Source: Candidatus Levyibacteriota bacterium (GTDB taxonomy: Bacteria; Patescibacteriota; Microgenomatia; Levybacterales; UBA12049). From it: DNA of 64,000 nucleotides. The translations under genes and the position numbers were made by a program. The notes beneath the pieces are model-generated. The model was not told the origin of the DNA. It searched no databases and was given only the letters and a program-made list of their open reading frames with translations. Positions 7,005 through 63,373 of the stretch are shown here, one piece after another. The stretch lies in assembly GCA_030651475.1 (NCBI GenBank), contig JAUSEW010000002.1, positions 83,927-147,926 of the forward strand, written 5' to 3'. Position 1 is the first letter of the stretch, and each line of letters opens with the position of its first letter.

Positions 7005-7166
7005 AAAATATACTTCAAGGCGGGGGAAAGGGGAGGGATATAGTTTGATATAGTAATTAATTAAATATTATAGGACACTTCGTCGCTTCGTTCCTCAGTG
7101 TGGATAACTTCTAGTTTTCACAAGCTTAGCCTCTACTTTTCACAGGTTTACTCTTTGCTCATTCAT

Positions 7167-20063: not shown

Positions 20064-20075
20064 AAGGGGTGTTTC

Positions 20076-20118
20076 TGACCCCTGATTCTGACCCCAGGGG
20101 TCAACCCGCGGGGTTGAC
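20076..20118. repeat. cluster of GC-rich palindromes (gaccccaggggtc; gtcaacccgcggggttgac) upstream of RAYT copy 2
   Basis: Read from the sequence. The inverted partner aacccctggggtc lies at 20756-20768 and a third copy at 20543-20555 inside the gene. Confidence 0.7.
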
Positions 20119-20750: not shown

Positions 20751-20755
20751 CTTTC

Positions 20756-20768
20756 AACCCCTGGGGTC
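20756..20768. repeat. inverted copy of the accccaggggt palindrome downstream of RAYT copy 2
   Basis: Reverse complement of 20090-20102. Confidence 0.6.
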
Positions 20769-20791
20769 GGAATGTTACTGAAAAGCAATTC

Positions 20792-49468: not shown

Positions 49469-49545
49469 GGGTTCGTAGCTCAGTTGGTTAGAGCGTTACA
49501 TTGACATTGTAAAGGTCAGAGGTTCGACTCCTCTCGGGCCCACCA
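49469..49545 (+). tRNA. tRNA-Val (anticodon GAC)
   Basis: Manual cloverleaf: acceptor GGGTTCG/CGGGCCC with two G-U pairs, D arm GCTC...GAGC, anticodon stem TTACA/TGTAA with loop TTGACAT, T arm AGAGG-TTCGACT-CCTCT, discriminator A plus encoded CCA. Confidence 0.85.
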
Positions 49546-49772
49546 TTCTGGAGGCCGCCGTTTTCTGAAGTTTTTCAGCTGAGATTTTCTATATCAAACC
49601 ACAGAAATTAATTTGCGTTGATGGCGACATATCAAAATGTTTCATTTTTTAACCTTGTCAAGAGGCAATTTATATTGAAAAATCATACTAACTTGGTAAT
49701 TAAGCAATTTTGCTGATATAATGAATTTATCCAAGTCCTCGCTTTGCCTATCTCCAGCTTCCGCTGGGGGAT

Positions 49773-50528
49773 TTACTTAGCGAGGCAAATTTTTTTCCAA
49801 TAGAACACGTTTATTTTCTGATACTCAAAACTTGGCCAGTAATAGTTAGCTTTCATCTTGCATTTTTCAGCTATCCCCGGACACTTACTTAAAAGTGCTT
49901 TGCGGTAGATATTTTTATGTTTTTCCGCTCCCGTTAGAATTTTTCTATGGACATCTGCAAAGCTCAATATCAAACCGGTTAAAAAATCGGTTGCTTGAAT
50001 CATATTGGAAACGCCTGTAAATTCTCCGTTTTTTGCCCTATTTTTAGAATCCCGCCGATACACTTGTACAATAGTTGTATCTTTTTGTTTCAAAAAAGTC
50101 GGCAAAATAACATTACCTTGAAAACCTTTGTCGTCAATATTCAAGAGTTTCTTGTGTTGTTCATATTTTTCAGGACTGATCGAACGGCAAAGTTCGGCGT
50201 AGGCGGAAACGTATGCCATATCCTTTTTATCTAAACCATAATGGTTATCTTCAAAATAATCTTTGTTAGAAAAAAGGTTATCTTTAATGAGTATTTTAAA
50301 ATAAATATCTTCTGTTAAGAGAAAATAATCTATGAGTCTGACGGCGTAAAGAATCTGGGAATAATCTGTTGAGGAGTATTTCAACTCTCTTTTTTCATAT
50401 CCGCACTCTTTTCGGATTTTTTGAATATTTTGCATGTGGATGGTAGGCGTAGTAGTGAATAAGAAACCGACAGCCCAAATTTTGTCAGCGCCTGGAGTAT
50501 TTGATTCATCGCCGTATAGATATAACAT
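49773..50528 (-). CDS. DUF3800-family protein
   Basis: N-terminal LYLYGDES... matches the DUF3800 Y-x-DES start. It is the last gene of the defense-like operon. Confidence 0.55.
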   Translation of the reverse strand: MLYLYGDESNTPGADKIWAVGFLFTTTPTIHMQNIQKIRKECGYEKRELKYSSTDYSQILYAVRLIDYFLLTEDIYFKILIKDNLFSNKDYFEDNHYGLDKKDMAYVSAYAELCRSISPEKYEQHKKLLNIDDKGFQGNVILPTFLKQKDTTIVQVYRRDSKNRAKNGEFTGVSNMIQATDFLTGLILSFADVHRKILTGAEKHKNIYRKALLSKCPGIAEKCKMKANYYWPSFEYQKINVFYWKKICLAK

Positions 50529-50596
50529 CTTCTTATCTTATCACTTTCTACTGTCTCAATTTCCTCGGAGGGAGGGTCGTAGGGTTTATAAACTAC

Positions 50597-50968
50597 CTAA
50601 TCGATCTTGCCATAGAAAGCTAGACTTCCCTTTGTAATTCTTTTGTACTTCCATCCTTGTCGCTTACAATACGCTTTGGCACTTTCACCCTTTAATTTTG
50701 TAGAAACCCATAAAAGTAAAGGCAAACCTTTTGTCTCGTGCAACTCTTTTGACCCATCTTGATATTCCACTAAAAAATCCGGTAAATAATTGTGAGTAAA
50801 ACCAAGCAGCTTATAAGGAATTCTAATCCCATGTTTTTTAGTCCAGCTTTTTACTGCCGGATCTCTTTCTAGTTCCACCATATACTCTCGTTCTAATGCT
50901 GAATCGTAACTTTCCCAACCACTAGAACTTTTTCTTAACTGTGTTAATCTTCCATGCTTTGTTATCAT
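50597..50968 (-). CDS. small TnsA-N-like PD-(D/E)xK endonuclease-fold protein
   Basis: YLPDFLVEYQDGSKELHETKG fits the D...E-x-K core of TnsA_N and restriction-endonuclease-like folds. Its start overlaps the helicase stop by 4 bp. Confidence 0.45.
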   Translation of the reverse strand: MITKHGRLTQLRKSSSGWESYDSALEREYMVELERDPAVKSWTKKHGIRIPYKLLGFTHNYLPDFLVEYQDGSKELHETKGLPLLLWVSTKLKGESAKAYCKRQGWKYKRITKGSLAFYGKID

Positions 50969-53013
50969 TTACTGGTTAATATCCCTTCAATTAGTTCAGG
51001 CCTTAAGAAAATATCATGTACTTGGTCAATCATTGCCCAGAGAATTCTTAGTTGTCTTTCATCGGCTTCCTCAATTGCCTTACCAAGCAAAAACCTTTTT
51101 GTTATATGCTGTCTAATAATTTTTATTAAATATGCTTGTCTATCATCAGGATTTCTATCATATTCAAGTAAGGAAGCTATCGCAATATTATGTGTCTGTT
51201 TAATTATTTGTTTTTTTATCTCATCTAGGCTCCAATGGTCTGTATTAGTAGCCTTCGCTAAATTCCTTACATCGATTTCAGGGAGATTTTTATCCAAAGT
51301 TGTCATATCAGAATCAAGATTTAAACTTTTAATCTGGGCAACATCTTCAGATATATTCATTTTGTGCGGGTCATATTCATACTGATCAAGGTATTTTTGC
51401 CATTCATAAATTGGTTCAACAACTTCCGGTGGTTCGGGAGTCGCTGGAATTTTTGACATATCGAGTTTTTCCTCTGCCTCTCCTATTGTCTGCTCACCTT
51501 CTTCAACGGTTTCTATTGTTTCTTTCTCTGTCGGAATTTTTGCTTCATCGATGATAATGTTTGCTGGATCAAGCTGATCCGGATATTCAGTTGCTCTTAA
51601 ATTTTCCCAAAGCCATTTATGCTTTAAGATTGGGTGATCCACTACGAATAATGATTCCCATTCCTCTGTACTTTTTCCCATTCTTCGAAGTCCTCTTCCG
51701 ATTACTTGCGGGCCATAAACAGAAAACTTTTGTCCGCCAACCTCTTTATAGCTAAACTTTCTAAACAGAACCTCAACTGCAATATTTCTTACGTCCCATC
51801 CTTCCCGAAGCATTAAAACAGAAATCACAGCATCAAATTCGGGATGTGGATTTTGATTAAGAGTTTTTGCTTGATCGACTAACTCATCATTTTGTTCATT
51901 ATGAACCAATAAAGTCTTATTGACTTCGTATTTTGGGCCGATCTCCTGCAATGCCCGATCAATATTTTCTGCGTCTGCAATTGATAGAGCAATAACAAAA
52001 AGTAATGGCTTGAATCTTGGTTGACCATCCTTTCCTCTTGGCACGGCTAATCTTTGCTTTGCTAAAAGCTCTAACCCTATGGCTAATTGTTGACGCATTG
52101 GTTTAGCGCTGGTGATATATCTTCTGGCTGGTATTTTTCTTTTTTCAATTTCTTCCCAAGGCATCTCTTCTTCCGAAATAGTTTTACCAGTTATTAAATC
52201 CTCATATGTTAATTTCACTTTCCTAACGTCAGGATGAAAAACTACAATCCTTTTAATGATTTTATCCTTCATTGCTTCGGCAATTCCGTACACAAAGATC
52301 ATCTCGCTATCTGGATGCAAACCATCCAGTCTATCCGGTGTAGCAGTTGTATCCAAGCGGAAAAATCTTTTTGGTTTCAATTTATTTATTAAATCATTAT
52401 AGATTTCTGCTTTTGTATTATGAGCTTCGTCATTAAAGATAACTATGGAATCAATATTTTCCATCAAAACTTTCCAGTTATCTCTTTTTTCGTAGATCTG
52501 CTGTATGTTTCCAATTAAAATATTATTTGCCCTAACGCCAGCAGAGCTTGCTCCTGCTTCCATAACATGATGGGAAAGTCTATCTTTAAGAGGTAAATAC
52601 GAGTTGAAGAAGAACGGAAAAATATTGTAAATATAAATATAGGAGTTCGGATCAAACTCATCTACTAACCTTGATCTGACTATTGTATTTGGCGTGAGAA
52701 CTAAAAATTTATTTTGATCATGCACAATCATCATGTAAGCAATCATTGCGCCAATGACTGTGGTCTTGCCTCCACCTGTAACTATATTTGTTAGAACATC
52801 TTTAAGCCCCAATATTTCAAAAGAATAAACGCATCTCTCAATCGCTTCAATTTGCACTTTCTTCCATTGTTTTTCGTTCCAAAGTTCAAGATTTGGTTTA
52901 AAGTGTTGAGAATTAAGGTGTTTCAAAAAAGCAATACCAGCATCAGGAATCCCTTCATAGGTTTTTCTCCACTGCTTAAAATTCGCCTCATGTGGCTTAA
53001 AAAAATACTGCAT
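50965..53013 (-). CDS. Type III restriction Res-like SF2 helicase (ResIII domain, DEAH box), apparently without its own nuclease domain
   Basis: Motif I TGGGKTT, motif II IIFNDEAHNT, motif III TATPDR, motif VI QVIGRGLRR. No PD-(D/E)xK motif is seen in the C-terminal ~200 aa. Confidence 0.75.
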   Translation of the reverse strand: MQYFFKPHEANFKQWRKTYEGIPDAGIAFLKHLNSQHFKPNLELWNEKQWKKVQIEAIERCVYSFEILGLKDVLTNIVTGGGKTTVIGAMIAYMMIVHDQNKFLVLTPNTIVRSRLVDEFDPNSYIYIYNIFPFFFNSYLPLKDRLSHHVMEAGASSAGVRANNILIGNIQQIYEKRDNWKVLMENIDSIVIFNDEAHNTKAEIYNDLINKLKPKRFFRLDTTATPDRLDGLHPDSEMIFVYGIAEAMKDKIIKRIVVFHPDVRKVKLTYEDLITGKTISEEEMPWEEIEKRKIPARRYITSAKPMRQQLAIGLELLAKQRLAVPRGKDGQPRFKPLLFVIALSIADAENIDRALQEIGPKYEVNKTLLVHNEQNDELVDQAKTLNQNPHPEFDAVISVLMLREGWDVRNIAVEVLFRKFSYKEVGGQKFSVYGPQVIGRGLRRMGKSTEEWESLFVVDHPILKHKWLWENLRATEYPDQLDPANIIIDEAKIPTEKETIETVEEGEQTIGEAEEKLDMSKIPATPEPPEVVEPIYEWQKYLDQYEYDPHKMNISEDVAQIKSLNLDSDMTTLDKNLPEIDVRNLAKATNTDHWSLDEIKKQIIKQTHNIAIASLLEYDRNPDDRQAYLIKIIRQHITKRFLLGKAIEEADERQLRILWAMIDQVHDIFLRPELIEGILTSK

Positions 53014-53065
53014 ATTTACTCAATATTAAGATAGGGTCTAATTTAATTATTACTATTGATATTTC

Positions 53066-54796
53066 TTAAACTTCATAGATCGTATTTATTTTATCTATTA
53101 TTGTGTCATAAACATACTCGAAGTTAGCGTGTGTTTTTTTAGATAACTTTTTTAGTATTGCCTTTACTTTTTTTGAAAAATAAAGAGTGGCAATAGTCTT
53201 TTCGAATGACGTATTATTTGGAATAGCTAGCTCGCTTCTAATTAATCTAATATCCTGCCCTTCAAAAAGATCCTGAAGTATTGTTTTTTTTCTTGATTTA
53301 GAATTAAGTGGTAACAACAGAAATTTTTTTCCCTCTTCATCGCCAAAAAACTTCATTGAATTCTCGAATTCCCTCTGACCTTCAACATCATTATCCCACA
53401 TAGCCAAGTATTTCAATCTCCATCCTATTGAAATTGATATAAAGTACGAAATACTTTCAGCATTTACTGATGGTAAAAATCCTAAATTTAATGTTTTTGG
53501 TTTAAATAATTCAAAACAATAGAAATCATATATTCCCTCAACTATGCATATTGATTCAAAATTAAAGTCTGTTATAAACGGTTTGATTTTGAGAGCATCA
53601 ATAATTGGTTGAACAGCCAGTCTTTTCTCTTTACTATTGTCTTTATATTCCAAAAGAGAAAGAATGCTTATTGATCCATTACTGCTTTTTTGTGCAACTC
53701 TCACGGAATTAAGCGGTATCTGCGATGGATCAAGTAAATAATGAGAATGTGTGCAGTAAATAACGACATTATTGCTAGACAAGTACGAAAGCTTCTCGCA
53801 TAATTTAGATTGAGCACTGGAATGCAGATACGACCCTGGCTCATCAAGTAAATATATAGTATCCTTATCTTCCATACTTCTAACTTTTGGGTTAAATTCA
53901 AGTTTCATAACGAAATTAAAAAACCAGTAAAATCCTTTACTTCGATCACGAATCCCAAAATATCTCTCTTTCCCCTCTATAGTTTCCTTTACAAGAAGCT
54001 TTAAGAATGGTCTCTCCTCTTTAAGGCTATAGTCAATTTGTACATCCAATCTTGCTCCTTTTTCTAAAGTAAATTTTTCCCACTCTTTTGCTAAAGTTTG
54101 ATTTAATACCTTACATGCATCTCCCAAGATACTTTGTCTTGTTAACTCTTCAATCTCCTTTAATTTAAATACTGAATAGTCATTATTTGTTTTTCTGAAT
54201 AATTGTTCAATAATTTCTAACCATCCCTTAGCTTGATTATTCTCACCTACTATTTCCATTTCTTCTTGGACAGTATCCCTGAAGTCATCGAAATATAAAA
54301 TATGCGGAGTTTTCCGAAGTATTGTATCTATCAAAAGCGTATTAATATTTGAGTAGTTTTCAAGTTCTTGGTTCTTAATCGAGTACTGTTTATTTATAAG
54401 ATCTCTCTTGATAAATAAATAGCATGTTTTCTGATCAACCCTAGAAACAAACTCTTTAAATTCTGTTAGTTCTCGTACAGCGTCTTCAGATAATCCTGAT
54501 ACATTTCCTAGTTGTTCGTGTATACTTAGGCATTCTTCTTTGCTTATCTCTATTTTTGCTGTTACTGAAGGCACTCCCTGATCGGTAGTTTTGTATAAAT
54601 TCCGGACATTTATTAACTGTCGCCCATCGTTTAGGCTATCGTTCGAAAGATCAAAAGCAAAAATTGCCCATAAAATACTAGTTTTCCCGCTTTCATTTAT
54701 GCCAATTATAGGAAGCAAGCTCCTTTTAGAGATATCTACCTCTAAATTTCCTGAAATAGCTTTATAATCAGATATTGTAAAGCTTAAATACCTCAT
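53066..54796 (-). CDS. OLD-family nuclease: ABC-type ATPase (AAA_15/21) fused to a C-terminal Toprim domain (GajA-like architecture)
   Basis: Walker A GINESGKTS, Walker B IYLLDEPGSYLHS, H-loop CTHSH, then Toprim E (CIVEGIYD) and DxD (AMWDNDVEG). 576 aa. Start overlaps the methyltransferase stop by 4 bp. Confidence 0.7.
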   Translation of the reverse strand: MRYLSFTISDYKAISGNLEVDISKRSLLPIIGINESGKTSILWAIFAFDLSNDSLNDGRQLINVRNLYKTTDQGVPSVTAKIEISKEECLSIHEQLGNVSGLSEDAVRELTEFKEFVSRVDQKTCYLFIKRDLINKQYSIKNQELENYSNINTLLIDTILRKTPHILYFDDFRDTVQEEMEIVGENNQAKGWLEIIEQLFRKTNNDYSVFKLKEIEELTRQSILGDACKVLNQTLAKEWEKFTLEKGARLDVQIDYSLKEERPFLKLLVKETIEGKERYFGIRDRSKGFYWFFNFVMKLEFNPKVRSMEDKDTIYLLDEPGSYLHSSAQSKLCEKLSYLSSNNVVIYCTHSHYLLDPSQIPLNSVRVAQKSSNGSISILSLLEYKDNSKEKRLAVQPIIDALKIKPFITDFNFESICIVEGIYDFYCFELFKPKTLNLGFLPSVNAESISYFISISIGWRLKYLAMWDNDVEGQREFENSMKFFGDEEGKKFLLLPLNSKSRKKTILQDLFEGQDIRLIRSELAIPNNTSFEKTIATLYFSKKVKAILKKLSKKTHANFEYVYDTIIDKINTIYEV

Positions 54797-56799
54797 TTTG
54801 TTACCTCCATTTTTTTACTTAAAATTGTCTCTCCTGCTAAATTATCTTGTACTTTGCACGCAACAACATACTCTCTCTCTTTATCAAATTTATGCTTCGC
54901 TTTTAACACTGCCTCAAAAATCTCTCCACGCTTTTTACCTGCCCCGTTGCGCAGCTTTACGGGGTCCTTTTTCTTTTCTCGAGATAAAACATAATCTTTA
55001 TCTGCAGAAAAATGTCCTTCCTGATAATCAAAATCCCATTGAGCATTTACAAGCCAGCCATCTTCATTTGTTGAAATTGCATCCACTGCTTCAAACTCAT
55101 ATTCCAAAAGCCCAATTTTTTTAATCTTAATATCTCCAATTACAGGAGGTTTGGAAAAACGAAGGAATAATTCCGCATCTTCAACATCGGGCATTCTTTG
55201 TAAAATCCTTTGCCTAAAGGCTTTGGAATCTAACGGAATTGCTTCCAATTCTATAGGCAGATTATATTTTTGTGAATAATTTTGCAGAGCTTTAACATAA
55301 GCCAATACTTGTCTGGAAAATCTCCAAGCAACAATTTTTGCACGGATCATTTGATTTACTTGAACTTTGGCTTTTATTTCATCGAAAAACGTTTTAATAT
55401 CCTTTACGTCAATTGATTCATTTGGATTGGGATGCCCAATATAAATTGGTTCTTGTTGCGCAGGCGGTCTATAGCCATGAGTAACTCCTGCTCCGGTATT
55501 TCGGCTCGCTCCATAAGCAGTTAAAACAAAATTTATAAATTCTTCTTGATTTAAGTTTTTAAACTTCTCAACTGGGTAAACTCCCAAATAGTAAACTTCA
55601 ATATTGGGAACTTTCTCAAAAGTGCCTTCCGTCTGTAACCCCAACTGAAAGGCTTTATTGTCAGTTGAAATATTACTTTTAACCCCGCTCATTTCCTCCC
55701 CAACTTTTACCAACCTATCTAAAGTAACGGAAACAGCCACTCTTGAAGAATCACAGCCAATAAATTTTCTTTTCAATTTCTGAGCTACAGCTAATGTTGT
55801 TCCACCTCCCACAAAAAAATCTGCTACTACCTCGCCTTCGTTTGAAGAGGCTTTTATAATTCTTTCTAAGAGAACTTCTGGTTTCTGAGTCGGGTAACCG
55901 ATTCTTTCTTTGTGAACTGCTGGAATAGTAGGGATATCCCAGACATCCTCGGGATACTTTCCTTCATCTAAATAATATTTATAGTATTTACCCATTTTAG
56001 AACTCCATTTTTTTCTAAATCTCCTTCCTTCTTCATCTTTATAGTGAAAGTTTTCCTCTGCAGAAGATTCCTTAAATGGGACTTTTACTCTTTCTATTTC
56101 AAATGTATATTTTTTGGATTTGGAGTAAAGAAAAATAATATCATGCTTCTTGCTAAAATCCTTTTTTGATTTTGCTCCCATGTGATACCACCAAATAACT
56201 TCATTTACAAAATTTTCATATCCAAAAATCTTATCCATCTCTGTTTTAATATAATGACTAGCATGCCAGTCGCAATGGACGTAAATACTGCCTGTATTTT
56301 TTAAAACTCTTCGCATTTCCCAAAGCCTAGCGTTAAGCCAAATCAAATAACTCGTTATTCCACCTTCCCAAATATCCTCAAAAGTTCTTACTTCGTTACT
56401 GTCTCCCCAAATAACGTTGTAATTTCTGCCAGAGAAAAAGGGAGGATCAATATAAATTAAGTCTATTGAATTGCTTGGAAGAGTACGTAAGACCTCTAAA
56501 TTATCCCCAAGATAGAGTTTATTAGCCGGAGATTGTGGGTCATTAAATATTACCGTATCTCCATGATTTTTAGGATGAAGTGCAGGAATATTAATATAAG
56601 GAAATACCCTATCAAATGCTTTATGGTCATCATAACCAAGAGGCGGATTTGTCGGGTCTGGTAAATTATGTAAGCGTTTCCTAAGTTTTGAAGAAACAGA
56701 AATAACACTCTTTTGATCTGGGCGTTCCTGCCCTTCGGATTCTTTCTGTATTTTCTCTAATTCCTCTTTGTCAATTACTGATTTATTCTGTGTGTGCAT
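54793..56799 (-). CDS. beta-class DNA N6-adenine/N4-cytosine methyltransferase (Type III Mod-like) with an extra C-terminal domain
   Basis: Motif IV IYIDPPFFSG comes before motif I VVADFFVGGGTTLAVA, which is the permuted order typical of Type III Mod and N4/N6 methyltransferases. A ~300-aa C-terminal extension follows. Confidence 0.8.
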   Translation of the reverse strand: MHTQNKSVIDKEELEKIQKESEGQERPDQKSVISVSSKLRKRLHNLPDPTNPPLGYDDHKAFDRVFPYINIPALHPKNHGDTVIFNDPQSPANKLYLGDNLEVLRTLPSNSIDLIYIDPPFFSGRNYNVIWGDSNEVRTFEDIWEGGITSYLIWLNARLWEMRRVLKNTGSIYVHCDWHASHYIKTEMDKIFGYENFVNEVIWWYHMGAKSKKDFSKKHDIIFLYSKSKKYTFEIERVKVPFKESSAEENFHYKDEEGRRFRKKWSSKMGKYYKYYLDEGKYPEDVWDIPTIPAVHKERIGYPTQKPEVLLERIIKASSNEGEVVADFFVGGGTTLAVAQKLKRKFIGCDSSRVAVSVTLDRLVKVGEEMSGVKSNISTDNKAFQLGLQTEGTFEKVPNIEVYYLGVYPVEKFKNLNQEEFINFVLTAYGASRNTGAGVTHGYRPPAQQEPIYIGHPNPNESIDVKDIKTFFDEIKAKVQVNQMIRAKIVAWRFSRQVLAYVKALQNYSQKYNLPIELEAIPLDSKAFRQRILQRMPDVEDAELFLRFSKPPVIGDIKIKKIGLLEYEFEAVDAISTNEDGWLVNAQWDFDYQEGHFSADKDYVLSREKKKDPVKLRNGAGKKRGEIFEAVLKAKHKFDKEREYVVACKVQDNLAGETILSKKMEVTK

Positions 56800-57017
56800 G
56801 TAGACTAATTTTACCAGAAAACCAAGATTATAAAAAGAAGAGAATTCCTTTTCGTGTGGAGGAAATTTATAATGGATAGGGAAAATTAAACTTTAAAGAA
56901 TTGAGCAAATCTCAATTTATAAAGATTCTCCAGGAAATCTGTCCCGGCATATCCTGCTAACAAAGATATTTTCCCCCGCATAATCTTGCTTTTCGCCTTT
57001 TCACTACTATTCGTAGA

Positions 57018-57039
57018 CGGCTCCCTCCAGAGGCGGGCA
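57018..57039. repeat. left 22-bp inverted repeat (gctccctccagaggcgggcagg) bracketing the Bro-N gene. The gggcaggcaaa motif recurs at 57033-57043 and 57059-57069.
   Basis: 21 of 22 positions match the reverse complement of 57950-57971. Confidence 0.8.
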
Positions 57040-57095
57040 GGCAAAGAGCGATTTGAGCGGGGCAGGCAAATCATTGTTGGCAATAATTCCGGACA

Positions 57096-57917
57096 TTATG
57101 AAAGTTGCTTAGCCCTTTGTTTCTTAGGTAAGTAATTCTTTTTGGAAACTATTGACCTTCCAAGACGTTTTTCAAGCTTTCTTCTTGCACCGCCGGCAAT
57201 ATCACCACCTGCTTTGGCATCACTTTTAAGTTTAGGCATTCCTTTTGAATCTTCGTTGCGATGAATTTCAGTAGTAGCCCTTTCCCCAAGCATGGTAAAA
57301 ATTAACTCAAAGTCATCCATGTGATCTCTTAAGTTTTGCCGCTTTAATCCCTTTAACTTTTTGTACTGACTTGGAGTTACACCAAACATTGCTTTGGAGA
57401 TTTCAGCCGTGAGAATTTCATAATCCCTCTGTATCCTTGCTCCTCTTTTTTGCCATTCATCAGTTAATTCTTCGCGGATAGCAATACCTCTCATCCGTTT
57501 CTCTATCCAATCATCAGAATAACCTTTTGCTTTATACAAGGCTCTTGTTCTTTTGGTTGCCAGTTCAGGATCTTCTATTTCTTGGATTCTTTCATATCCA
57601 ACTCTTGCCAGCCATCTTTTGAAAGGCTCAGCTTTGGGAGAAGGGATAGACTGGATGATACGAAAAACTCCTTCGGTATTGGCACAGCTTATTTTTTGTT
57701 TTCCTCCTTTTGTTTCAATTAAAAGGGGGGTGGCAATTTGCCTCCACCCCTTGGAGATCTCGGGGTCACGTCGGCGCATATCTTTGATATACCCTTCGGG
57801 TTGAACAGAATCGGTAAGTGCTGCAACTACATCAACAATAACAAACCACCATTCATGGTGATGGATAGTCTTACGGATTTGCTTATTTCTAAAAATAGCA
57901 ATTTTGGTATCAATCAT
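57096..57917 (-). CDS. Bro-N (KilA-N-like) domain protein, phage antirepressor / DinD-like
   Basis: IDTKIAIFRNKQIRKTIHHHEWWFVIVDVVAALTDS matches the Bro-N consensus (..IR....G..WF...DVA..L). The start is set at the internal Met (MIDTK) because the upstream 48 codons include the right inverted repeat and a hairpin. Confidence 0.55.
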   Translation of the reverse strand: MIDTKIAIFRNKQIRKTIHHHEWWFVIVDVVAALTDSVQPEGYIKDMRRRDPEISKGWRQIATPLLIETKGGKQKISCANTEGVFRIIQSIPSPKAEPFKRWLARVGYERIQEIEDPELATKRTRALYKAKGYSDDWIEKRMRGIAIREELTDEWQKRGARIQRDYEILTAEISKAMFGVTPSQYKKLKGLKRQNLRDHMDDFELIFTMLGERATTEIHRNEDSKGMPKLKSDAKAGGDIAGGARRKLEKRLGRSIVSKKNYLPKKQRAKQLS

Positions 57918-57949
57918 GAATTTCAGTATAGCATGTCTGAAGAAAGGAT

Positions 57950-57971
57950 GGCCAAAGTGCCTGCCCGTCTC
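57950..57971. repeat. right 22-bp inverted repeat (cctgcccgtctctggagggagc)
   Basis: Reverse complement of 57018-57039 with one mismatch. Confidence 0.8.
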
Positions 57972-57997
57972 TGGAGGGAGCAGAAGCGACCGACTGT

Positions 57998-58019
57998 GCC
58001 CTGAGCGAAGTCGAAGGGC
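57998..58019. repeat. hairpin with the conserved loop GAGCGAAGTCGA, copy 1 (gccct-gagcgaagtcga-agggc)
   Basis: Member of a 4-copy family. Other copies at 60361-60396, 60816-60837 and 60948-60977. Confidence 0.7.
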
Positions 58020-58223
58020 TACCTTTAAAAGCAGTTCGGACTTTTTCATAAACGTCCACAAAATTCACCCTGTTATTTTAGGCATTCATCATGTCCACAA
58101 ATTCTTGCTGCTCTGTTTGCTTCAGCAATTCTTTTATCTGTATTAAAACCACAACAGTGATAATATGCGGAGCTATTAGTTGATTTTTTGCAGGTTCTTC
58201 TCTTTTGAAATTTTCTCTTTCCA

Positions 58224-58247
58224 TAAAAAAACCCGCCTATTGGCGGG
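58224..58247 (-). terminator. Rho-independent terminator (minus strand CCCGCC-aata-GGCGGG followed by T7)
   Basis: GC stem and T-run read from the sequence, downstream of the 58469-59704 gene. Confidence 0.6.
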
Positions 58248-58468
58248 AATTTGCAATCTGTTTTTAACTAACAGAAATTCTCCGCCCTTTACGGGTTAGT
58301 AAGGAGAGTCTCGTTAGCTAAAAATTTTACTTGATTCATCTTTAAATTATTTTATCAATTAATTTTTATCTTTGTCAATAACTAAATTAAAACTTTTAAT
58401 TTATAGGAATTTTTACTTGATGAGTGGGAAACGAACGAGATTGGGTAGGGCAATCTCTATTGATTATC

Positions 58469-59704
58469 TTATGTTTTCTTCATAGCTTTTAACGCGTCAA
58501 GTTTTATTCGCCTAGCAACTTGTTTTTCTCGCTTAGTTTTATTTTTTTCGTTTCGCCATGCTTCGAGCATCTTTCTAAGTGTCGTTGTCAAAGCAAGGTC
58601 ATCAGAGAACTCTTTGATAGCCCCTTCTACTAATTGAACGTCTTTATTATCATAAATAATGAAAGCGTTTCCTTTTATTTGGTGGATTAAAAACTTACGT
58701 TTCAAATCACCTTCAAGCATGCGTAATGTTCTGTTGCCCAGGAAAGAATCCACAAGAATAGGTTCGTTTGTAGTTAATATGAATTCCAATTCTTTTAGGT
58801 AAAACTCTTTGCTTACGGGCAATTCTCCTCTATCGTTAGTCATAGATCCAAGTATTACGGCATATGAATAAGCAGTATGGAACCCATTTGGACTAGAGGG
58901 ATTTTGATTTTTTTCTTCTTCATGAATTATTTCATGCATTTTGTTTGCCGCTTTACGTTTCCACGATTCGTCAACGGAGGTATTGTCGTATAGGTCGCTT
59001 AACGGTTTGTATTTATCAATGTCACGAATGTCAAAACCAAACAACATTCTTAACACAGACTCAATATATTCAGAAGATATGGGATGATTATGAATAGTAA
59101 AATGCGCGAATAGTTCCTCCGCTTGTTTAGTATCTAAGGCAGTAAGTAAATGAGGGATAAGCATATTATAGGTCTTTAATGACGTAGCGTAACGTCCGAT
59201 CAGATTAATTATGGCCATACGCTCTTCTTCCGTTGGTGTTCCTTTTTCTTCTATTCCTACTTCTATTGTTTTTACCGCTTTTTCCGTTTCTTTGACGTAG
59301 TCTGGAAGTTTAGAAGCAACAAAATTTGCTTGTTCTTTGCTTAGTTTTCCTAACAGTCTCTTTACCCGACCCTCTTTATTTTCATCAGCATCTCTTCCAT
59401 ATGAAATGTACGAAATAAATAAACCGAGATTGCCGTGGCTGTTTTCCGCATCAACGCTTACTAAGAAAGGGAGTTTTGTAATATCGGGTGCAAAAAGCAC
59501 TTGTAATGCTCTTTGTTGATATTGCGGATCAACATCTTCTCTTAAAAGAGCAACCATATCGTCTTTGGTTCTTTTGACACCCATAAACTGATCCCAAGCG
59601 GCTTCTTGAGGACCTTCGGGGAAAAACCTATGAATAGTTTCTTCTAAGAAATTATCAACGCGTGGATCTAGGGGCGGAGTTCTTTCTTGTTTTGATCCTG
59701 CCAT
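58469..59704 (-). CDS. hypothetical protein
   Basis: 411-aa ORF with no recognised motif. Lies within the accessory island. Confidence 0.3.
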   Translation of the reverse strand: MAGSKQERTPPLDPRVDNFLEETIHRFFPEGPQEAAWDQFMGVKRTKDDMVALLREDVDPQYQQRALQVLFAPDITKLPFLVSVDAENSHGNLGLFISYISYGRDADENKEGRVKRLLGKLSKEQANFVASKLPDYVKETEKAVKTIEVGIEEKGTPTEEERMAIINLIGRYATSLKTYNMLIPHLLTALDTKQAEELFAHFTIHNHPISSEYIESVLRMLFGFDIRDIDKYKPLSDLYDNTSVDESWKRKAANKMHEIIHEEEKNQNPSSPNGFHTAYSYAVILGSMTNDRGELPVSKEFYLKELEFILTTNEPILVDSFLGNRTLRMLEGDLKRKFLIHQIKGNAFIIYDNKDVQLVEGAIKEFSDDLALTTTLRKMLEAWRNEKNKTKREKQVARRIKLDALKAMKKT

Positions 59705-59707
59705 ATG

Positions 59708-60346
59708 TTATCCGACTTGCGTGGCGACGACGCGTTCGTTAGAAAGACCAAAGGTTGTGCCGTGTTTCTTGAACATTGACCAATATTCTTTTTTAGCTTT
59801 CTTGCTTTTGAACATAGATAGCCAAGCTTTGGAATCTTCAACTTTAGCTCGGGCCTGGCGAATAGTAACAAGCATCCATTCAAAAAACGATTGATGATAT
59901 TTTCCGGGTTTTGCAACTCTTTGCTCTACTGTAATTTCTCTAAATTCCGTTCTTAATTCTTCAGAGCTCTCAACAAGCTTTTTTAACTCAACAATTATTT
60001 GCTGAATTTGAGCTTTTGTTTCTTGGTTTTCTTGGGAAACAACCCGTTCTTGAGCATGAACTATCTCTGCCGTATAATTAATCCCCGGTGTAATATCTTT
60101 TTTCTTTTCTTGCTCTTCCTTAAGTTTTTTTAAATTAAGTTCTTTCCCTTCCGCAAGATCTCCGCTTAGATTTTGGGCTTCCTCTTTTGCGTATTTATTA
60201 ATTCCCAGAAACTGTTCCCAGATATCTCCCAGCGCATCTTGAGTATTTTTAGCTATGGATTGGGGAACAGCTGACAGCGTATCTCGTACAGCTTCTACTG
60301 GATTTCGATCTACATATTGTCTGGCTTTGGATTTCGTTCTTTTCAT
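59708..60346 (-). CDS. hypothetical protein (coiled-coil rich)
   Basis: 212-aa ORF located 3 bp from the upstream gene. Confidence 0.3.
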   Translation of the reverse strand: MKRTKSKARQYVDRNPVEAVRDTLSAVPQSIAKNTQDALGDIWEQFLGINKYAKEEAQNLSGDLAEGKELNLKKLKEEQEKKKDITPGINYTAEIVHAQERVVSQENQETKAQIQQIIVELKKLVESSEELRTEFREITVEQRVAKPGKYHQSFFEWMLVTIRQARAKVEDSKAWLSMFKSKKAKKEYWSMFKKHGTTFGLSNERVVATQVG

Positions 60347-60360
60347 ACATTCGATAAACT

Positions 60361-60396
60361 CAGTATGATTCTGAGCGAAGTCGAAGAATCATACTG
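60361..60396. repeat. hairpin with conserved loop, copy 2: 11-bp perfect stem cagtatgattc / gaatcatactg around ctgagcgaagtcgaa
   Basis: Read from the sequence. Lies between tig and the downstream gene. Confidence 0.8.
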
Positions 60397-60404
60397 TCAC
60401 ATTA

Positions 60405-61283
60405 TCACAAGTCTCTCAAAAAATCAAGGGTTTTCTGTTGTCTTAAGATACTGGTCAGAAGATACCGATTGGCTTCTAAGTTCTTACGCTCTTGATCGTC
60501 CTTCGCTTTATTGATAGCTTCATCCACTTCTTTCTGATCAACAGTGATATTCTCTTTATCGGCGATTTGCTGAAGAGCGAACTCAAATTTGATATCGTTT
60601 TCCGCTTTTTGCTCATAGTCTTTCCTAACAGATTCAGGCGTTTTGCCCGTGGATGCCAGATACTGATCTAAGTTTAACCCGAGCTTTTTTACCTCATCGA
60701 GAAGCTGGGAAAGAGATCTATCTACTTCCTGATCAATAAGAATTTTTGGGATCTGACAATTAACACTATCTAAAAGAGCCTTAATGGTCTCTTCGGATTT
60801 TGGTTTTTCTGGCTTGCCCTGAGCAACGTCGAAGGGTTCTTTTCCCGGAACTATGATTTTGCTCTTGGCATTTATTTTCTTAACGTTTTCTTTATATGAG
60901 CCTAGTTCAATGTTTGGAGCTTCGCAGGTAAGTGCCGTAAACGTCCAACCCTTCGACTCACTTTGTTCGCTCAGGGTCGACAAGTCTTCGAACTTGTCGA
61001 CATGAATTTTGGGATTAATGATTGGTTTTAATTTATTTTCCGAAACTGCGTCAACATAAAATTTAGGTAAAAGTTTTTTTAAGACTTCTTCTTGAATAGC
61101 TGCCTTATCGAGCTTTTCTTCAACGAGTTTTCTTGGAGCCTTGCCTTTGCGAAACCCGGGCAAAGTAGTATTTTGAATCATTCCCTCTACGACTTCGTTT
61201 TTGGTTTTTACAACCTCATAGGAAGGAATAGTTATTGTCAGTTTTATTGTTCCGTCTTTTTCTTTAGTTATTGCAGATATCAT
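60405..61283 (-). CDS. tig: trigger factor, short form (N-terminal ribosome-binding plus C-terminal domain, no PPIase domain)
   Basis: GFRKGKAP ribosome-binding signature. 292 aa versus ~430 aa canonical. Conserved-loop hairpin copies 3 and 4 lie inside the coding sequence. Confidence 0.6.
   Translation of the reverse strand: MISAITKEKDGTIKLTITIPSYEVVKTKNEVVEGMIQNTTLPGFRKGKAPRKLVEEKLDKAAIQEEVLKKLLPKFYVDAVSENKLKPIINPKIHVDKFEDLSTLSEQSESKGWTFTALTCEAPNIELGSYKENVKKINAKSKIIVPGKEPFDVAQGKPEKPKSEETIKALLDSVNCQIPKILIDQEVDRSLSQLLDEVKKLGLNLDQYLASTGKTPESVRKDYEQKAENDIKFEFALQQIADKENITVDQKEVDEAINKAKDDQERKNLEANRYLLTSILRQQKTLDFLRDL
60816..60837. repeat. hairpin with conserved loop, copy 3 (gccct-gagcaacgtcga-agggtt), inside the tig coding sequence
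   Basis: Read from the sequence. One substitution in the loop relative to copies 1 and 2. Confidence 0.6.
60948..61001. repeat. conserved-loop hairpin copy 4 (reverse orientation, loop split by a 9-nt insert) abutting a perfect 10-bp-stem palindrome gtcgacaagt-cttcga-acttgtcgac, inside the tig coding sequence
   Basis: Read from the sequence. Encodes ...VDKFEDLSTLSEQSESKGW... on the minus strand. Confidence 0.6.
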
Positions 61284-62792: not shown

Positions 62793-62864
62793 AGCGGGAG
62801 ACGGGAATCGAACCCGCTACCTTCTCCTTGGCAAGGAGACGTTCTACCGATGAACTACTCCCGC
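62793..62864 (-). tRNA. tRNA-Gly (anticodon GCC)
   Basis: The reverse complement folds as acceptor GCGGGAG/CTCCCGC, D arm GTTC-ATCGGTA-GAAC, anticodon stem TCTCC/GGAGA with loop TTGCCAA, T arm GCGGG-TTCGATT-CCCGT, discriminator U. Confidence 0.85.
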
Positions 62865-63181
62865 TTCCTCACTTCGTTCGTCAGCGCAAGCGCATCACTT
62901 GTTATACCATGCGCATTTTTTATTAATGCTAATTTCTTCTTCCTATTCCACCCTTTAATCTCTATTTCCCTTCTTAACGCTTCTGCTTTCGTAGTATATG
63001 TTTCCGAATAAACTAATTCAACTGGTAATCTTCCCTTAATCGACTTCGCTCCCCACTTACTAAAATTATGTTCAAATATTCGTCTTTTTATATTCCTAGT
63101 GTATCCAGTATAGAGCGAACCATCCTTGCATCTAATTATATAGATATAATAATTCACATTCGTTTCGCTCAGTGCAAGCAT
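62855..63181 (-). CDS. GIY-YIG nuclease-family small protein (UPF0213-like)
   Basis: YYIYIIRCKDGSLYTGYTRNIKRRIFEH GIY-YIG motif. The start is set at the internal Met because the upstream part of the ORF is a stack of palindromes. Confidence 0.7.
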   Translation of the reverse strand: MLALSETNVNYYIYIIRCKDGSLYTGYTRNIKRRIFEHNFSKWGAKSIKGRLPVELVYSETYTTKAEALRREIEIKGWNRKKKLALIKNAHGITSDALALTNEVRKRE

Positions 63182-63235
63182 AACCTGCGCTAGAATTTTT
63201 AAAAATTCTAGCACTGAGGTCGCTCGTTGGCGACC
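63168..63235. repeat. nested palindromes upstream of the GIY-YIG gene
   Basis: ctcagtgc...gcactgag (63168-63175 with 63211-63218) encloses gctagaatttttaaaaattctagc (63189-63212), followed by ggtcgc-tcgttg-gcgacc (63218-63235). Confidence 0.7.
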
Positions 63236-63373
63236 GAAGTGCCGAGAGTCAGAATCGGACTGACATAGCCTGTTCTTCAGACAGGTGCCTTGACCAACTT
63301 GGCTATCTCGGCGTGGATATAATAATATCAATTTTCGTAGCCGATGTAAATATGAAAATGTTATAATTGCTCT

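What the first reader, a model, noticed from the sequence alone, without database searches (positions are those of the whole stretch)
57998..61001. Hairpin family with a conserved 12-nt loop (GAGCGAAGTCGA) and variable, co-varying stems: four copies in 3 kb, one or two inside the tig coding sequence
The copies are at 57998-58019 (gccct/agggc stem), 60361-60396 (11-bp perfect stem cagtatgattc/gaatcatactg), 60816-60837 (ccct/aggg, inside tig) and 60948-60977 (reverse orientation, accct/agggt, loop split by a 9-nt insert, inside tig and abutting a perfect 10-bp palindrome gtcgacaagt-cttcga-acttgtcgac at 60976-61001). A conserved loop with stems that change identity (ccct/aggg versus ttct/agaa) points to a hairpin recognised by a protein. 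Candidates are a Y1 transposase target, a recombination site or a regulatory RNA hairpin. The element tolerates insertion into protein-coding sequence: tig keeps its frame through the N-domain/C-domain junction where the PPIase domain is missing.
Basis: seen in the sequence. Interest (0 to 1): 0.55.

Follow-up and report, generated by a model that had tools for sequence, protein, structure and literature searches.

The report
Mobile hairpin repeats of GIY-YIG nucleases
The four hairpins are real copies of a tiny DNA repeat found across bacteria; it travels with small GIY-YIG nuclease genes (one lies 2 kb away), not with the two transposase-like genes, and has repeatedly inserted in frame into the trigger-factor gene of this bacterial group.

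Summary
The window is from a Candidatus Levybacteria genome (CPR).

The 16-mer CTGAGCGAAGTCGAAG occurs in at least 120 viral contigs and at least 120 species genomes of most bacterial phyla. The two flanking base pairs are paired in about 95% of 120 distinct copies, with all six pair types.

The partner is probably not a RAYT. Both Y1 genes in the window carry their own, different palindromes. Hairpins of the CTGAG..CGAAG type are 15-19 times denser within 200 nt of single-domain GIY-YIG genes, in a preferred orientation. The window has such a gene (62855-63181) flanked by degenerate copies.

This matches the known Ssn nuclease / SRM (CGTC-tagged REP) system. However, the published SRM consensus catches none of these copies, and the nuclease looks UPF0213-like.

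Close relatives lack three of the copies. Across 88 of 120 tig orthologs whose anchor motifs could be located, two linker sites carry independent insertions in both orientations and in different frames. The hairpin apex also takes secondary inserts. The missing PPIase domain is a clade trait.

Verdict: a new variant of a known kind. The insertion mechanism is unresolved.

The parts
57997..58020 (+). Copy 1: hairpin tGCCCTGAGCGAAGTCGAAGGGCt. It is intergenic, 17 nt beyond the right inverted repeat of the Bro-N gene cassette, and lies in island DNA that relatives lack.
   Evidence: DNA fold -7.7 kcal/mol, z = -3.4. The region 49545-58082 has no counterpart in L243/L244.
60349..60394 (+). Copy 2: a 46-nt block inserted at the start codon of the DUF5660 gene. 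It holds the exact 16-mer with an 11-bp stem (60361-60396) and a second, degenerate, inverted copy, TTCGATAAACTCAG (60350-63). It is bounded by the 6-nt direct repeat TCATAC (60343-48 and 60389-94).
   Evidence: Alignment A2. The empty site GACGGTATGA|AAAGA is seen in L241 and L243. The filled site is seen in the window and, in diverged form, in L245. Fold -9.9 kcal/mol, z = -4.4.
60813..60836 (+). Copy 3: a 24-nt unit CTTGCCCTGAGCAACGTCGAAGGG inside tig (site B, residues 149-156, PFDVAQGK), between the Trigger_N and Trigger_C matches.
   Evidence: It is absent from the 81-90% identical orthologs P0002-P0007 and present in variant form in L326, L327 (as a tandem pair) and L328. L329 has a different variant in another reading frame.
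60949..60983 (-). Copy 4: a TGTC-tagged unit ttGTCGACCCTGAGCGA-ACAAAGT-GAGTCGAAGGG inside tig (site A, residues about 101-113, LSTLSEQSESKG), with its apex split by an insert.
   Evidence: The unsplit base form CTGAGCGAGTCGAAG is in L331. Other apex inserts are seen in L245 and L327, and an antisense copy sits at the same site in L330.
60976..61001 (.). Perfect 10-bp palindrome GTCGACAAGT-cttcga-ACTTGTCGAC. One arm is native tig coding sequence (HVDKFE). The other arm is the 5' flank of copy 4.
   Evidence: It is 9 of 10 in the relatives L241 and L245 and absent where copy 4 is absent (L243).
62855..63181 (-). Single-domain GIY-YIG nuclease gene, the candidate partner of the hairpins. It lies between tRNA-Phe and tRNA-Gly. 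Both annotated termini (MLALSETN.. and ..ALALTNEVRKRE) are encoded by degenerate motif copies: GCTTGCACTGAGCGAAACGAAT at 63158-63179 and GCTTGCGCTGACGAACGAAGTGA at about 62867-62893.
   Evidence: PF01541 with E = 1.6e-18. NCBI annotates 108 aa (P0121). The nearest solved structures are the UPF0213 proteins 1zg2 and 1ywl. Flanks were read.
63214..63239 (+). Stem-checked hairpin of the same family with a hairpin-forming insert in its apex: CTGAG-GTCGCtcgttGGCGAC-CGAAG. It abuts tRNA-Phe upstream of the GIY-YIG gene.
   Evidence: The same layout (tRNA, then split copy, then sense copy, then GIY-YIG) is seen in L274 and L305.
7078..7098 (-). Probable subfamily copy caCTGAGGAACGAAGCGACGAAGtg. It is intergenic and is the only copy outside the last 6 kb of the window.
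   Evidence: A near-identical form, CTGAGGAGCGTAGCGACGAAG, lies 84 nt upstream of a window-type GIY-YIG gene in L246.

Best explanation
The hairpins are copies of a very short (about 20-24 nt, sometimes doubled) repeat family built on CTGAGC-(apex)-GTCGAAG and closed by two or more variable base pairs. The family belongs to, or is a sister of, the CGTC/TGTC-tagged REPs, now called Ssn-related motifs. Those are hairpins that small single-domain GIY-YIG nucleases bind as single-stranded DNA and cut a few nucleotides upstream.

In this window the likely partner is the GIY-YIG gene at 62855-63181. It is itself embedded between degenerate copies.

The repeats come and go on short evolutionary time scales. 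They survive inside genes only where a short in-frame peptide is tolerated, as in the two tig linker sites. Their own apex is a preferred place for further insertions.

Status of each step:

- Shown here: the anatomy, the covariation, the phylogenetic breadth, the spatial and orientational association with GIY-YIG genes, and the insertion polymorphisms.
- Taken from the literature: ssDNA-specific binding and cleavage by Ssn nucleases.
- Inferred: that this particular nuclease recognises these copies; that the conserved arms form a C-G, T-A, G.A, A.G, G-C helix with tandem sheared G.A pairs capped by a GAA loop; and that nuclease cleavage starts the insertion or replacement events.
For: 1. The family is real and structured. 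Of 267 distinct genomic copies of the 16-mer, 213 have at least 2 further Watson-Crick pairs, against 45 in a flank-swap control. The two adjacent pairs are 94-95% paired, with all six pair types; 0 of 500 shuffles reach the observed covariation score, and slid controls are far lower.
2. The 5' flank is asymmetric, with bias G-Y-T-C-R-Y-C. This resembles the GTCAY tag of NTS/SRM (PMC11893778).
3. Association with GIY-YIG genes. In 80 metagenomic GIY-YIG loci, 39 have the motif within 200 nt and 10 have it on both sides. Density is 2.10/kb near versus 0.143/kb far. With a stem check it is 2.00 versus 0.105/kb. Upstream copies are 34 sense to 9 antisense; downstream copies are 18 antisense to 3 sense.
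4. L274, a low-GC locus next to a tRNA, has the exact CCCTGAGCGAAGTCGAAGGG 45 nt upstream of a GIY-YIG start.
5. Six GIY-YIG ORFs and no RAYT were found in 240 motif-bearing loci. L162 and L233 show the gene bracketed by copies.
6. The window's GIY-YIG gene is bracketed by a split copy and two degenerate copies.
7. Literature. SsnA binds the NTS hairpin only as ssDNA and cleaves upstream. 71% of ssnA homologues are flanked by SRMs (PMC11893778). CGTC REPs lacked a known transposase and occur inside genes (PMC3733652).
8. Mobility. Three copies are absent from relatives that are 81-90% identical in tig. Independent insertions occur in both orientations and in two frames.
Against: - The published degenerate SRM pattern matches 0 of 287 copies of this 16-mer and nothing in the window.
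- The window's nuclease is closest to UPF0213 structures. Ssn was defined as the cd10448 clade, and I could not run CDD.
- Among the 80 loci the association is strongest for another GIY-YIG subtype (L233-like, 25/35). It is weaker for window-type or UPF0213-type genes (6/21 with the strict pattern, 8/21 relaxed).
- The copies that flank the window's own gene are degenerate, and the best copies lie 1.9-5 kb away.
- GIY-YIG nucleases do not join DNA, so cleavage alone does not explain insertion.
- No biochemical evidence exists for this protein or this motif.
Confidence: 0.62

Rival explanations
1. REP elements mobilised by the RAYT-like Y1 transposases of the window. The hairpin would be bound and cut as ssDNA by the HUH enzyme and pasted elsewhere.
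For: Two Y1_Tnp genes are in the window. They give sub-threshold hits to the NCBIfam REP-associated tyrosine transposase model. REP/RAYT systems are the textbook case of dispersed hairpins. L328, from another Levybacterium, also carries a Y1_Tnp gene.
Against: Each Y1 gene is bracketed by its own, different palindrome, and the motif is absent from their flanks (L328 flanks). There is no GTAG tag. No RAYT homologue was found in 240 motif loci. All copies but one (the probable copy at 7078-7098) lie 37-58 kb from the Y1 genes and within 5.2 kb of the GIY-YIG gene.
Confidence: 0.07
2. The hairpins are not mobile themselves. They are landing pads: preferred target or homing sites into which GIY-YIG gene cassettes and other short DNA insert. 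Their patchy distribution would come from repeated precise deletion and recombination between relatives.
For: GIY-YIG genes sit between inverted copies, as if inserted into a hairpin. The apex of the tig site-A copy holds three different inserts at one position, each bounded by GA. The site-B unit shares its CAAG tail across distant orthologs, which is compatible with common ancestry plus loss.
Against: Site A carries sense copies in some orthologs and antisense copies in others. Site B carries two different variants in two frames. Both need independent gains. The 46-nt intergenic block is a clean gain at a start codon with a 6-nt direct repeat. This rival overlaps with the best explanation, since in both a GIY-YIG protein recognises the hairpin.
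Confidence: 0.18
3. A regulatory or stabilising RNA hairpin (REP-like mRNA protector, attenuator or terminator) kept by selection at the RNA level.
For: Copy 2 sits between tig and the next gene, and copy 1 sits upstream of a gene. REPs are known to stabilise upstream mRNA (established knowledge).
Against: Copies occur in both orientations relative to transcription and inside CDSs. There is no T-run. Rfam gives nothing at gathering score or at E <= 1. Close relatives do without the copies. The characterised homologous system acts on ssDNA, not RNA (PMC11893778).
Confidence: 0.06
4. Chance or codon-driven resemblance, at least for the two copies inside tig.
For: Copy 3 has two loop mismatches and folds no better than shuffles. 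An exact 12-mer without a stem also sits in the GIY-YIG ORF.
Against: Shuffles give 0.00 expected hits against 3 observed. The residues are clean indels relative to orthologs. The same DNA unit recurs at these sites in many orthologs in several variants.
Confidence: 0.02

Closest known systems
NTS / Ssn-related motifs (SRM) with Ssn single-domain GIY-YIG ssDNA nucleases (Chenal et al. 2025, PMC11893778)
   Same: Short hairpin repeats in many copies. They have an oriented, non-palindromic 5' flank, cluster around a roughly 90-100 aa GIY-YIG-only gene and bracket it, and are spread across phyla. The repeat-gene-repeat layout resembles an IS.
   Different: The core is CTGAGC..GTCGAAG with only about 4 Watson-Crick pairs plus possible G.A pairs, instead of a 6-7 bp perfect GC stem with a GAAA loop. 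The published consensus HGTCWY..RNCYNB matches none of these copies. The window's nuclease resembles UPF0213 rather than the cd10448 clade that defines Ssn. NTS copies are rarely intragenic (2%), whereas here 2 of the 4 reported copies lie in one CDS.
CGTC-tagged REP families, including dRS3 and Rickettsia RPE-4/-6 (Di Nocera et al. 2013, PMC3733652)
   Same: Tagged palindromic repeats with no dedicated transposase. They are often found as head-to-head dimers and are sometimes inserted in frame in genes, including DNA ligase. Copy 4 carries a TGTC tag, and many copies in other phyla carry CGTCAY.
   Different: CGTC REPs are described with 8-9 bp stems that begin with AT, 4-5 nt loops and a CCA tail. 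The present family has a conserved 12-nt 'loop' and variable closing pairs. Copies 1-3 lack the tag.
GTAG-tagged REPs / REPINs with RAYT transposases
   Same: Dispersed hairpins, inverted doublets, and ssDNA-acting enzymes encoded by genes that the repeats flank. RAYT-like genes are present in the window.
   Different: There is no GTAG tag, the repeats are not next to the RAYT genes, and those genes have their own palindromes.
Rickettsia palindromic elements inserted in frame in protein-coding genes (Ogata et al. 2000; from my own knowledge and as cited in PMC3733652)
   Same: Palindromic repeats that insert in frame into functional genes and add a short peptide at tolerated surface sites.
   Different: RPEs are about 100-150 bp and genus-restricted. 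These units are 15-24 nt, or 46 nt as a doublet, and are found across bacteria.
Very small dispersed repeats (SDR) of cyanobacteria that nest within one another (Elhai et al. 2008; recalled from memory, not checked here)
   Same: Mobile palindromic units of 20-odd nt that insert into copies of themselves.
   Different: The sequences are different, and no nuclease association has been reported as far as I recall.

Membership tests
Ssn nuclease / SRM repeat system (PMC11893778) | Hairpin-forming repeats of 20-50 nt present in multiple copies | tested here: met
   5 stem-checked copies in the window plus the probable copy at 7078-7098. There are hundreds of copies elsewhere. Covariation of the closing pairs is shown.
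Ssn nuclease / SRM repeat system (PMC11893778) | Repeats flank a gene for a single-domain GIY-YIG protein of about 90-100 aa | tested here: met
   39 of 80 GIY-YIG loci have the motif within 200 nt. The enrichment is 15-19-fold, with an orientation bias. The window gene 62855-63181 (PF01541 only) is bracketed by a split copy and two degenerate copies.
Ssn nuclease / SRM repeat system (PMC11893778) | Match to the published degenerate SRM sequence HGTCWYN(0-2)YYVSBRHN(0-5)WNVSBRGN(0-2)RNCYNB | tested here: not met
   0 hits in the window, 0 of 287 16-mer sites and 2 of 80 GIY loci. The canonical NTS used as a control does match.
Ssn nuclease / SRM repeat system (PMC11893778) | Conserved non-palindromic 5' flank (CGTCAT) that gives the repeat an orientation | tested here: inconclusive
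   Family-wide 5' bias G-Y-T-C-R-Y-C, with little bias 3' of the stem. In the window, copy 4 has TGTCGAC, copy 3 CTTGCC, copy 1 TGTGCC and copy 2 GTATGATT.
Ssn nuclease / SRM repeat system (PMC11893778) | [quoted passage not shown] | tested here: inconclusive
   CDD is not available here. The best solved relatives are UPF0213 proteins BH0048 (E = 1.7e-18) and EF2693, which suggests a sister branch. The protein is homologous to other GIY-YIG ORFs found in motif-bearing loci (L233, L155, L101, L162, L238; phmmer E = 8e-20 to 2e-7).
Ssn nuclease / SRM repeat system (PMC11893778) | Binding of one strand of the hairpin as ssDNA only, and cleavage a few nt upstream | not testable with these tools
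   Needs purified protein and oligonucleotides.
CGTC-tagged REPs (PMC3733652) | Unpaired CGTC / TGTC / CCTC tag at one end | tested here: inconclusive
   The tag is present in copy 4 (TGTC) and in many copies from other phyla (GTCAYC class). It is absent from copies 1-3.
CGTC-tagged REPs (PMC3733652) | 8-9 bp stem starting with AT, a 4-5 nt loop and a CCA tail | tested here: not met
   Typical copies have 4 Watson-Crick pairs around a conserved 12-nt segment. The description would fit only if the G.A pairs are counted as stem, which is my own inference.
REP / RAYT (REPtron) | GTAG tag, and repeats flanking a RAYT gene | tested here: not met
   There is no GTAG. The RAYT-like genes are flanked by other palindromes. 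No RAYT was found in 240 motif loci.
Intrinsic terminator | GC-rich stem followed by a T-run, downstream of a gene in the sense orientation | tested here: not met
   No T-run follows any copy. Two copies are inside a CDS.

The most novel reading that the evidence does not exclude
The CTGAGC..GTCGAAG hairpin would be a distinct class of 15-24 nt mobile 'nano-element', found across bacteria. Its conserved arms would form a non-canonical helix with tandem G.A pairs, read by UPF0213-like or L233-like GIY-YIG nucleases outside the defined Ssn clade. Nuclease cuts at the hairpin, including a staggered cut at its own apex that leaves 2-nt duplications, would drive insertion, nesting and cassette replacement without any transposase. 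That would give the long-orphan UPF0213/YhbQ family a function and explain the ubiquitous 'PFDFAQGK / LSEVEG / PERSRR' peptides in predicted proteomes.
Probability: 0.2. Interest if true: 0.75.

Novelty: new variant of a known kind. Interest (0 to 1): 0.45.

Why it matters
If the link holds, it widens the recently discovered Ssn nuclease / hairpin system in three ways. It adds a second, much more widespread hairpin type. It adds another branch of single-domain GIY-YIG proteins. And it extends the system to CPR bacteria with tiny genomes.

It also gives clean natural evidence that such hairpins are gained repeatedly, in both orientations and in different frames, in the linker of the trigger-factor gene.

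On the practical side, these units generate spurious or extended ORFs and short peptide insertions. Examples are the annotated N- and C-termini of the GIY-YIG protein here, and insertions in DNA ligase and a ComM-like ATPase in other CPR genomes. Genome annotators should recognise them.

They also offer new candidate enzyme/site pairs for site-specific ssDNA cleavage.

Tried and rejected
1. **Stems copied from the target by inverted duplication.** The 46-nt intergenic insertion has GTATGA / TCATAC / GTATGA, and the 10-bp palindrome pairs native tig sequence with the element's flank. But the site-B unit brings its own CCCT/AGGG stem. The palindrome is only 9/10 in relatives, and distant filled orthologs do not show it. 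I kept this as an unexplained detail, not as a mechanism.
2. **5' flank base-pairs with the conserved core as a guide.** The longest complementary runs are no more frequent in the 5' flank than in the 3' flank. Rejected.
3. **Naive clustering of all ORFs near the motif.** It was dominated by spurious GC-rich ORFs and by prophage/GTA genes, so it was uninformative. I replaced it with phmmer using window proteins.
4. **Literature search for the sequence itself.** Only an irrelevant hit.
5. **Rfam,** at gathering score and at E <= 1. Nothing at any hairpin.
6. **Extending beyond the window** through the source contig. The GIY-YIG protein P0121 is not on record. P0044 and P0029 returned no DNA.
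7. **Whether the exact 12-mer inside the GIY-YIG ORF is a general property of the GAKSIKG codons.** It is not: L248, with the same peptide, has 4 mismatches. It stays unexplained.
8. **Whether the 24-nt inverted repeats around the Bro-N gene are another widespread family.** No match in 328 loci.

Full report
**What is in the sequence**

- Copy 1 (57998-58019) is gCCCTGAGCGAAGTCGAAGGGc.
- Copy 2 (60361-60396) has the same 16-mer, CTGAGCGAAGTCGAAG, inside an 11-bp perfect stem.
- Copy 3 (60817-60836) is CCCTGAGCaAcGTCGAAGGG.
- Copy 4 (60949-60976, minus strand) is CCCTGAGCGAA-caaagtgag-TCGAAGGG and abuts the perfect 10-bp palindrome at 60976-61001.

Dinucleotide-preserving shuffles give 0.00 expected matches to CCCTGAGC-N3-20-TCGAAGGG against 3 observed. 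They give 0.33 expected against 4 observed for CTGAG-N2-20-TCGAAG.

A third exact copy of the 12-mer lies at 63040-63051 (minus strand), without a stem, inside a small ORF.

All genes in this stretch are on the minus strand. In order: tRNA-Leu, tig (60405-61283), copy 2, a DUF5660 gene (59708-60346), an unknown 411-aa ORF, copy 1, and a Bro-N gene.

Copies 3 and 4 are translated in frame as PFDVAQGK and LSTLSEQSESKG.

**Where the window comes from, and what tig looks like**

The tig product is 100% identical to a trigger factor of a Candidatus Levybacteria MAG.

All 120 best homologues are 273-349 aa and have Trigger_N and Trigger_C only. An ortholog with no insertion at all (P0006, 275 aa) has the same architecture.

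So the missing PPIase domain is a trait of the clade and has nothing to do with the hairpins.

**The family outside the window**

The genomes include Spirochaetes, Proteobacteria, Bacteroidota, Cyanobacteria, Acidobacteriota, Chloroflexota, Verrucomicrobiota, Planctomycetota and several CPR lineages, in both GC-rich and AT-rich DNA.

Among 267 distinct copies, 213 continue with at least two Watson-Crick pairs directly outside the 16-mer, against 45 in a control that swaps right flanks between copies. The modal extension is exactly two pairs.

On an alignment of 120 distinct copies, these two positions are paired in 94-95% of sequences with all six pair types. Changes on both sides occur in 62 and 45 sequences. 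No shuffle out of 500 reaches the observed covariation score, and slid structures score far lower. Positions further out are paired only 42-52% of the time.

The 5' flank is compositionally biased (G-Y-T-C-R-Y-C, with classes such as GTCAYC, GTTCGCC, CCTGYC and CTCATS). The 3' flank beyond the stem is almost unbiased.

Related forms with other apex sequences co-occur with the 16-mer and with one another: CTGAGCTTGTCGAAG, CTGAGCGGAGTCGAAG and CTGAGCGAAGCGAAG. Copies are often nested in the apex of another copy or paired as inverted doublets.

The conserved part is therefore the two arms, CTGAGC and GTCGAAG, rather than a 12-nt loop as such.

My own reading rests on known DNA chemistry and was not tested here. 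The arms can pair as C-G, T-A, G.A, A.G and G-C, with the tandem G.A pairs in the favourable Y-GA-R context. A further C-G pair would then close a GAA loop, as in the very stable d(GCGAAGC) mini-hairpin.

**Which protein goes with it**

The two RAYT-like genes (Y1_Tnp) are each bracketed by their own palindrome: CTCCCAC..GTGGGAG, and GACCCCAGGGGTC with variants. They have no copy of the motif nearby.

A phmmer search of all ORFs in 240 motif-bearing loci with the window's proteins found no RAYT. It did find six GIY-YIG ORFs, four of them within 550 nt of a copy. In L162 and L233 the gene is bracketed by copies.

I then fetched 80 metagenomic loci that encode relatives of the window's GIY-YIG protein. 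Results:

- CTGAG-N1-8-CGAAG occurs within 200 nt of the gene in 39 loci and on both sides in 10.
- Its density is 2.10 per kb near the gene against 0.143 per kb elsewhere in the same loci.
- Upstream copies are mostly in the sense orientation (34 to 9). Downstream copies are mostly antisense (18 to 3). The gene therefore sits between inverted copies.
- Requiring two closing pairs gives 2.00 against 0.105 per kb.
- L274, a low-GC locus beside a tRNA gene, has the exact CCCTGAGCGAAGTCGAAGGG 45 nt upstream of the start codon.

The window has the same layout between tRNA-Phe and tRNA-Gly. A split copy lies at 63214-63239. Next comes a degenerate sense copy that encodes the first eight residues of the annotated protein. 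Then comes the GIY-YIG domain (PF01541, E = 1.6e-18). Last is a degenerate copy that encodes the C-terminal tail.

All copies in the window but one lie within 5.2 kb of this gene. The exception is a subfamily copy at 7078-7098.

**What is already known**

Di Nocera et al. (PMC3733652) sorted REPs into GTAG-tagged families, linked to RAYTs, and CGTC/TGTC-tagged families. The latter include Neisseria dRS3 and Rickettsia RPE-4/-6. They had no known transposase and were sometimes found inside genes.

Chenal et al. (PMC11893778) then reported three things:

- A subset of dRS3 repeats (about half) are longer oriented units, which they named NTS (CGTCATTCCCGCGMAVGCGGGAATCYRG); these and related 'SRM' hairpins flank the gene of a 94-aa GIY-YIG protein, SsnA.
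- SsnA binds the hairpin only as single-stranded DNA, on one strand only, and cuts a few nucleotides upstream.
- The family (CDD cd10448) is widespread.

The present hairpins share the logic and part of the 5' tag. However, the published degenerate SRM pattern matches none of 287 copies of the 16-mer, nothing in the window, and only 2 of the 80 GIY-YIG loci. It does match the canonical NTS control.

The window's nuclease is most similar to the solved UPF0213 proteins BH0048 and EF2693.

Among the 80 loci the association is strongest for a third subtype (L233-like, 25 of 35). It is weaker for window-like genes (6 of 21 with the strict pattern, 8 of 21 relaxed).

I therefore file the element as a new variant of the Ssn/SRM kind, not as a demonstrated member.

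**Evidence that the copies move**

Contigs from relatives with 81-90% identical tig were aligned to the window.

- **Copy 2.** This is a 46-nt gain at the start codon of the DUF5660 gene. The empty site reads GACGGTATGA|AAAGA in L241 and L243. The filled site carries a 6-nt direct repeat and a second, degenerate, inverted copy. L245 has a diverged version of the same insertion.
- **Copy 3.** This is a clean 24-nt gain, CTTGCCCTGAGCAACGTCGAAGGG, that all six close orthologs lack.
- **Copy 4.** P0006 and P0007 lack it.
- **Copy 1.** It lies in an 8.5-kb island (about 49545-58082) that L243 and L244 lack altogether.

Among 88 of the 120 tig orthologs whose anchor motifs could be located:

- Site A holds a sense copy in 33, an antisense-type peptide (S.SGQ) in 9, nothing in 15, and unclassified longer linkers in the remaining 31.
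- Site B holds PFD.AQG in 36, another frame or variant in 2, and nothing in 50.

The DNA confirms this. L330 has CCTTCGACAGGCTCAGGG in antisense orientation at site A. L329 has a 15-nt variant at site B in a different reading frame from the window's. L327 has a tandem pair at site B. These cannot all descend from one insertion.

At site A the unsplit form CTGAGCGAGTCGAAG (L331) is interrupted at one and the same position by ACAAAGT (window, L241, L326, L329), by another hairpin unit TCCTGAGCTTGCCGAAG (L245), or by the palindrome CCCGCCAGCTGGCGGG (L327). Each insert is bounded by GA..GA.

The hairpin apex is thus itself a hot spot. The 2-nt repeat is suggestive of a staggered cut. However, it rests on three cases at one site, while the intergenic case shows a 6-nt repeat.

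In other CPR genomes the exact 16-mer lies in frame inside an ATP-dependent DNA ligase gene (L154, Curtissbacteria). It also lies in the linker of a ComM/Mg-chelatase-like gene (L136, Saccharibacteria).

**How it most likely works**

- Shown: a structured, oriented hairpin unit; its tight spatial and orientational coupling to single-domain GIY-YIG genes, including one in this window; and rapid gain, loss and nesting.
- From the literature: such nucleases read the hairpin on single-stranded DNA and cut beside it.
- Inferred: the window's nuclease recognises these copies when the DNA is single-stranded, during replication, repair or uptake. The resulting breaks would be repaired in ways that copy or replace units.

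A GIY-YIG nuclease cannot rejoin DNA, so the joining step must come from host repair and remains unknown.

Copies inside genes persist only where a 5-13-residue insertion is harmless, as at the end of Trigger_N and at the N/C junction.

**Rivals**

- RAYT mobilisation is disfavoured by the flanks, the distances and the lack of co-occurrence.
- An RNA regulatory role is disfavoured by orientation, position and the lack of conservation among close relatives.
- Chance is excluded by the statistics and the indel pattern.
- The view that hairpins are mainly landing pads rather than mobile units is not excluded. It shares the central claim of recognition by a GIY-YIG protein.

**Verdict**

The system is of a kind described in 2013 and 2025. 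This hairpin type, its probable nuclease branch and its recurrent in-frame insertions in CPR genes are not covered by those descriptions.

Noticed in passing
window 49545-58082: An island of about 8.5 kb that the syntenic contigs of relatives (L243, L244, L245) lack. It sits between a conserved 275-nt segment and tRNA-Val. It carries a DNA methylase (54793-56799), an AAA ATPase (53066-54796), a ResIII helicase/restriction subunit (50965-53013) and a Bro-N gene. tRNA-Val is in the opposite orientation relative to tig compared with L243, and relatives carry one or two partial tRNA-Val copies here.
   Followed up: partly
window 58356-59704: The 411-aa ORF with no Pfam match (58469-59704) is an insertion relative to L243, L244 and L245, where the DUF5660 gene is followed directly by the segment matching 58356-58082. 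The two BLAST segments overlap by 9 nt in the relatives, which hints at a short direct repeat at the junctions.
   Followed up: partly
window 57020-57043 and 57958-57981: 24-nt inverted repeats, 96% complementary (GCTCCCTCCAGAGGCGGGCAGGCA), bracket the Bro-N gene like the ends of a small cassette. No copy was found in 328 other loci.
   Followed up: partly
window 2714-2740 / 3428-3450 and 20060-20105 / 20750-20775: Each of the two RAYT-like Y1_Tnp genes is flanked by its own palindrome: TCCCAC..GTGGGA, and GACCCCAGGGGTC / AACCCCTGGGGT. The second palindrome also occurs inside its own gene (about 20545-20560). These look like two separate REPtron-like units unrelated to the finding.
   Followed up: partly
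window 63040-63051 (minus strand): An exact GAGCGAAGTCGA without a stem inside the GIY-YIG ORF, encoding G-A-K-S-I. A homologue with the same peptide (L248) has 4 mismatches, so the codons do not force it. It could be chance (about 0.008 expected per window) or conversion from a hairpin copy.
   Followed up: partly
window 62855-63181: The annotated 108-aa GIY-YIG protein begins (MLALSETN) and ends (ALALTNEVRKRE) with residues encoded by degenerate hairpin copies. The real start may be the GTG at 63157. This is an example of how these repeats extend predicted ORFs.
   Followed up: partly
window 7100-7420 (minus strand): A long intergenic stretch beside the 7078-7098 hairpin copy contains GGGAGGGAAAGTCCGAGG. 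From memory this recalls the conserved P4 region of RNase P RNA. Rfam gives no match even at E <= 1, so this is unverified.
   Followed up: partly
L154:1499-1514 and L136:4540-4555: The exact 16-mer lies in frame inside an ATP-dependent DNA ligase gene of a Curtissbacteria MAG. It also lies in the inter-domain linker of a ComM/Mg-chelatase-like gene of a Saccharibacteria MAG.
   Followed up: partly
L238:4380-4410 and 4720-4760; L323 flanks: Other GIY-YIG genes are bracketed by a different hairpin family, GTCACCCTGAACTTGTTTCAGGG. This suggests several nuclease/hairpin pairs that share the GTCAY tag.
   Followed up: no
L233:1265-1551: A tandem array of seven hairpin units: six short units (one CTGAGCGAAGTCGAAG, five CTGAGCGGAGTCGAAG), period 26-27 nt from 1430 onwards, plus two longer composite units. 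It lies directly upstream of a GIY-YIG gene, with two inverted copies downstream.
   Followed up: no
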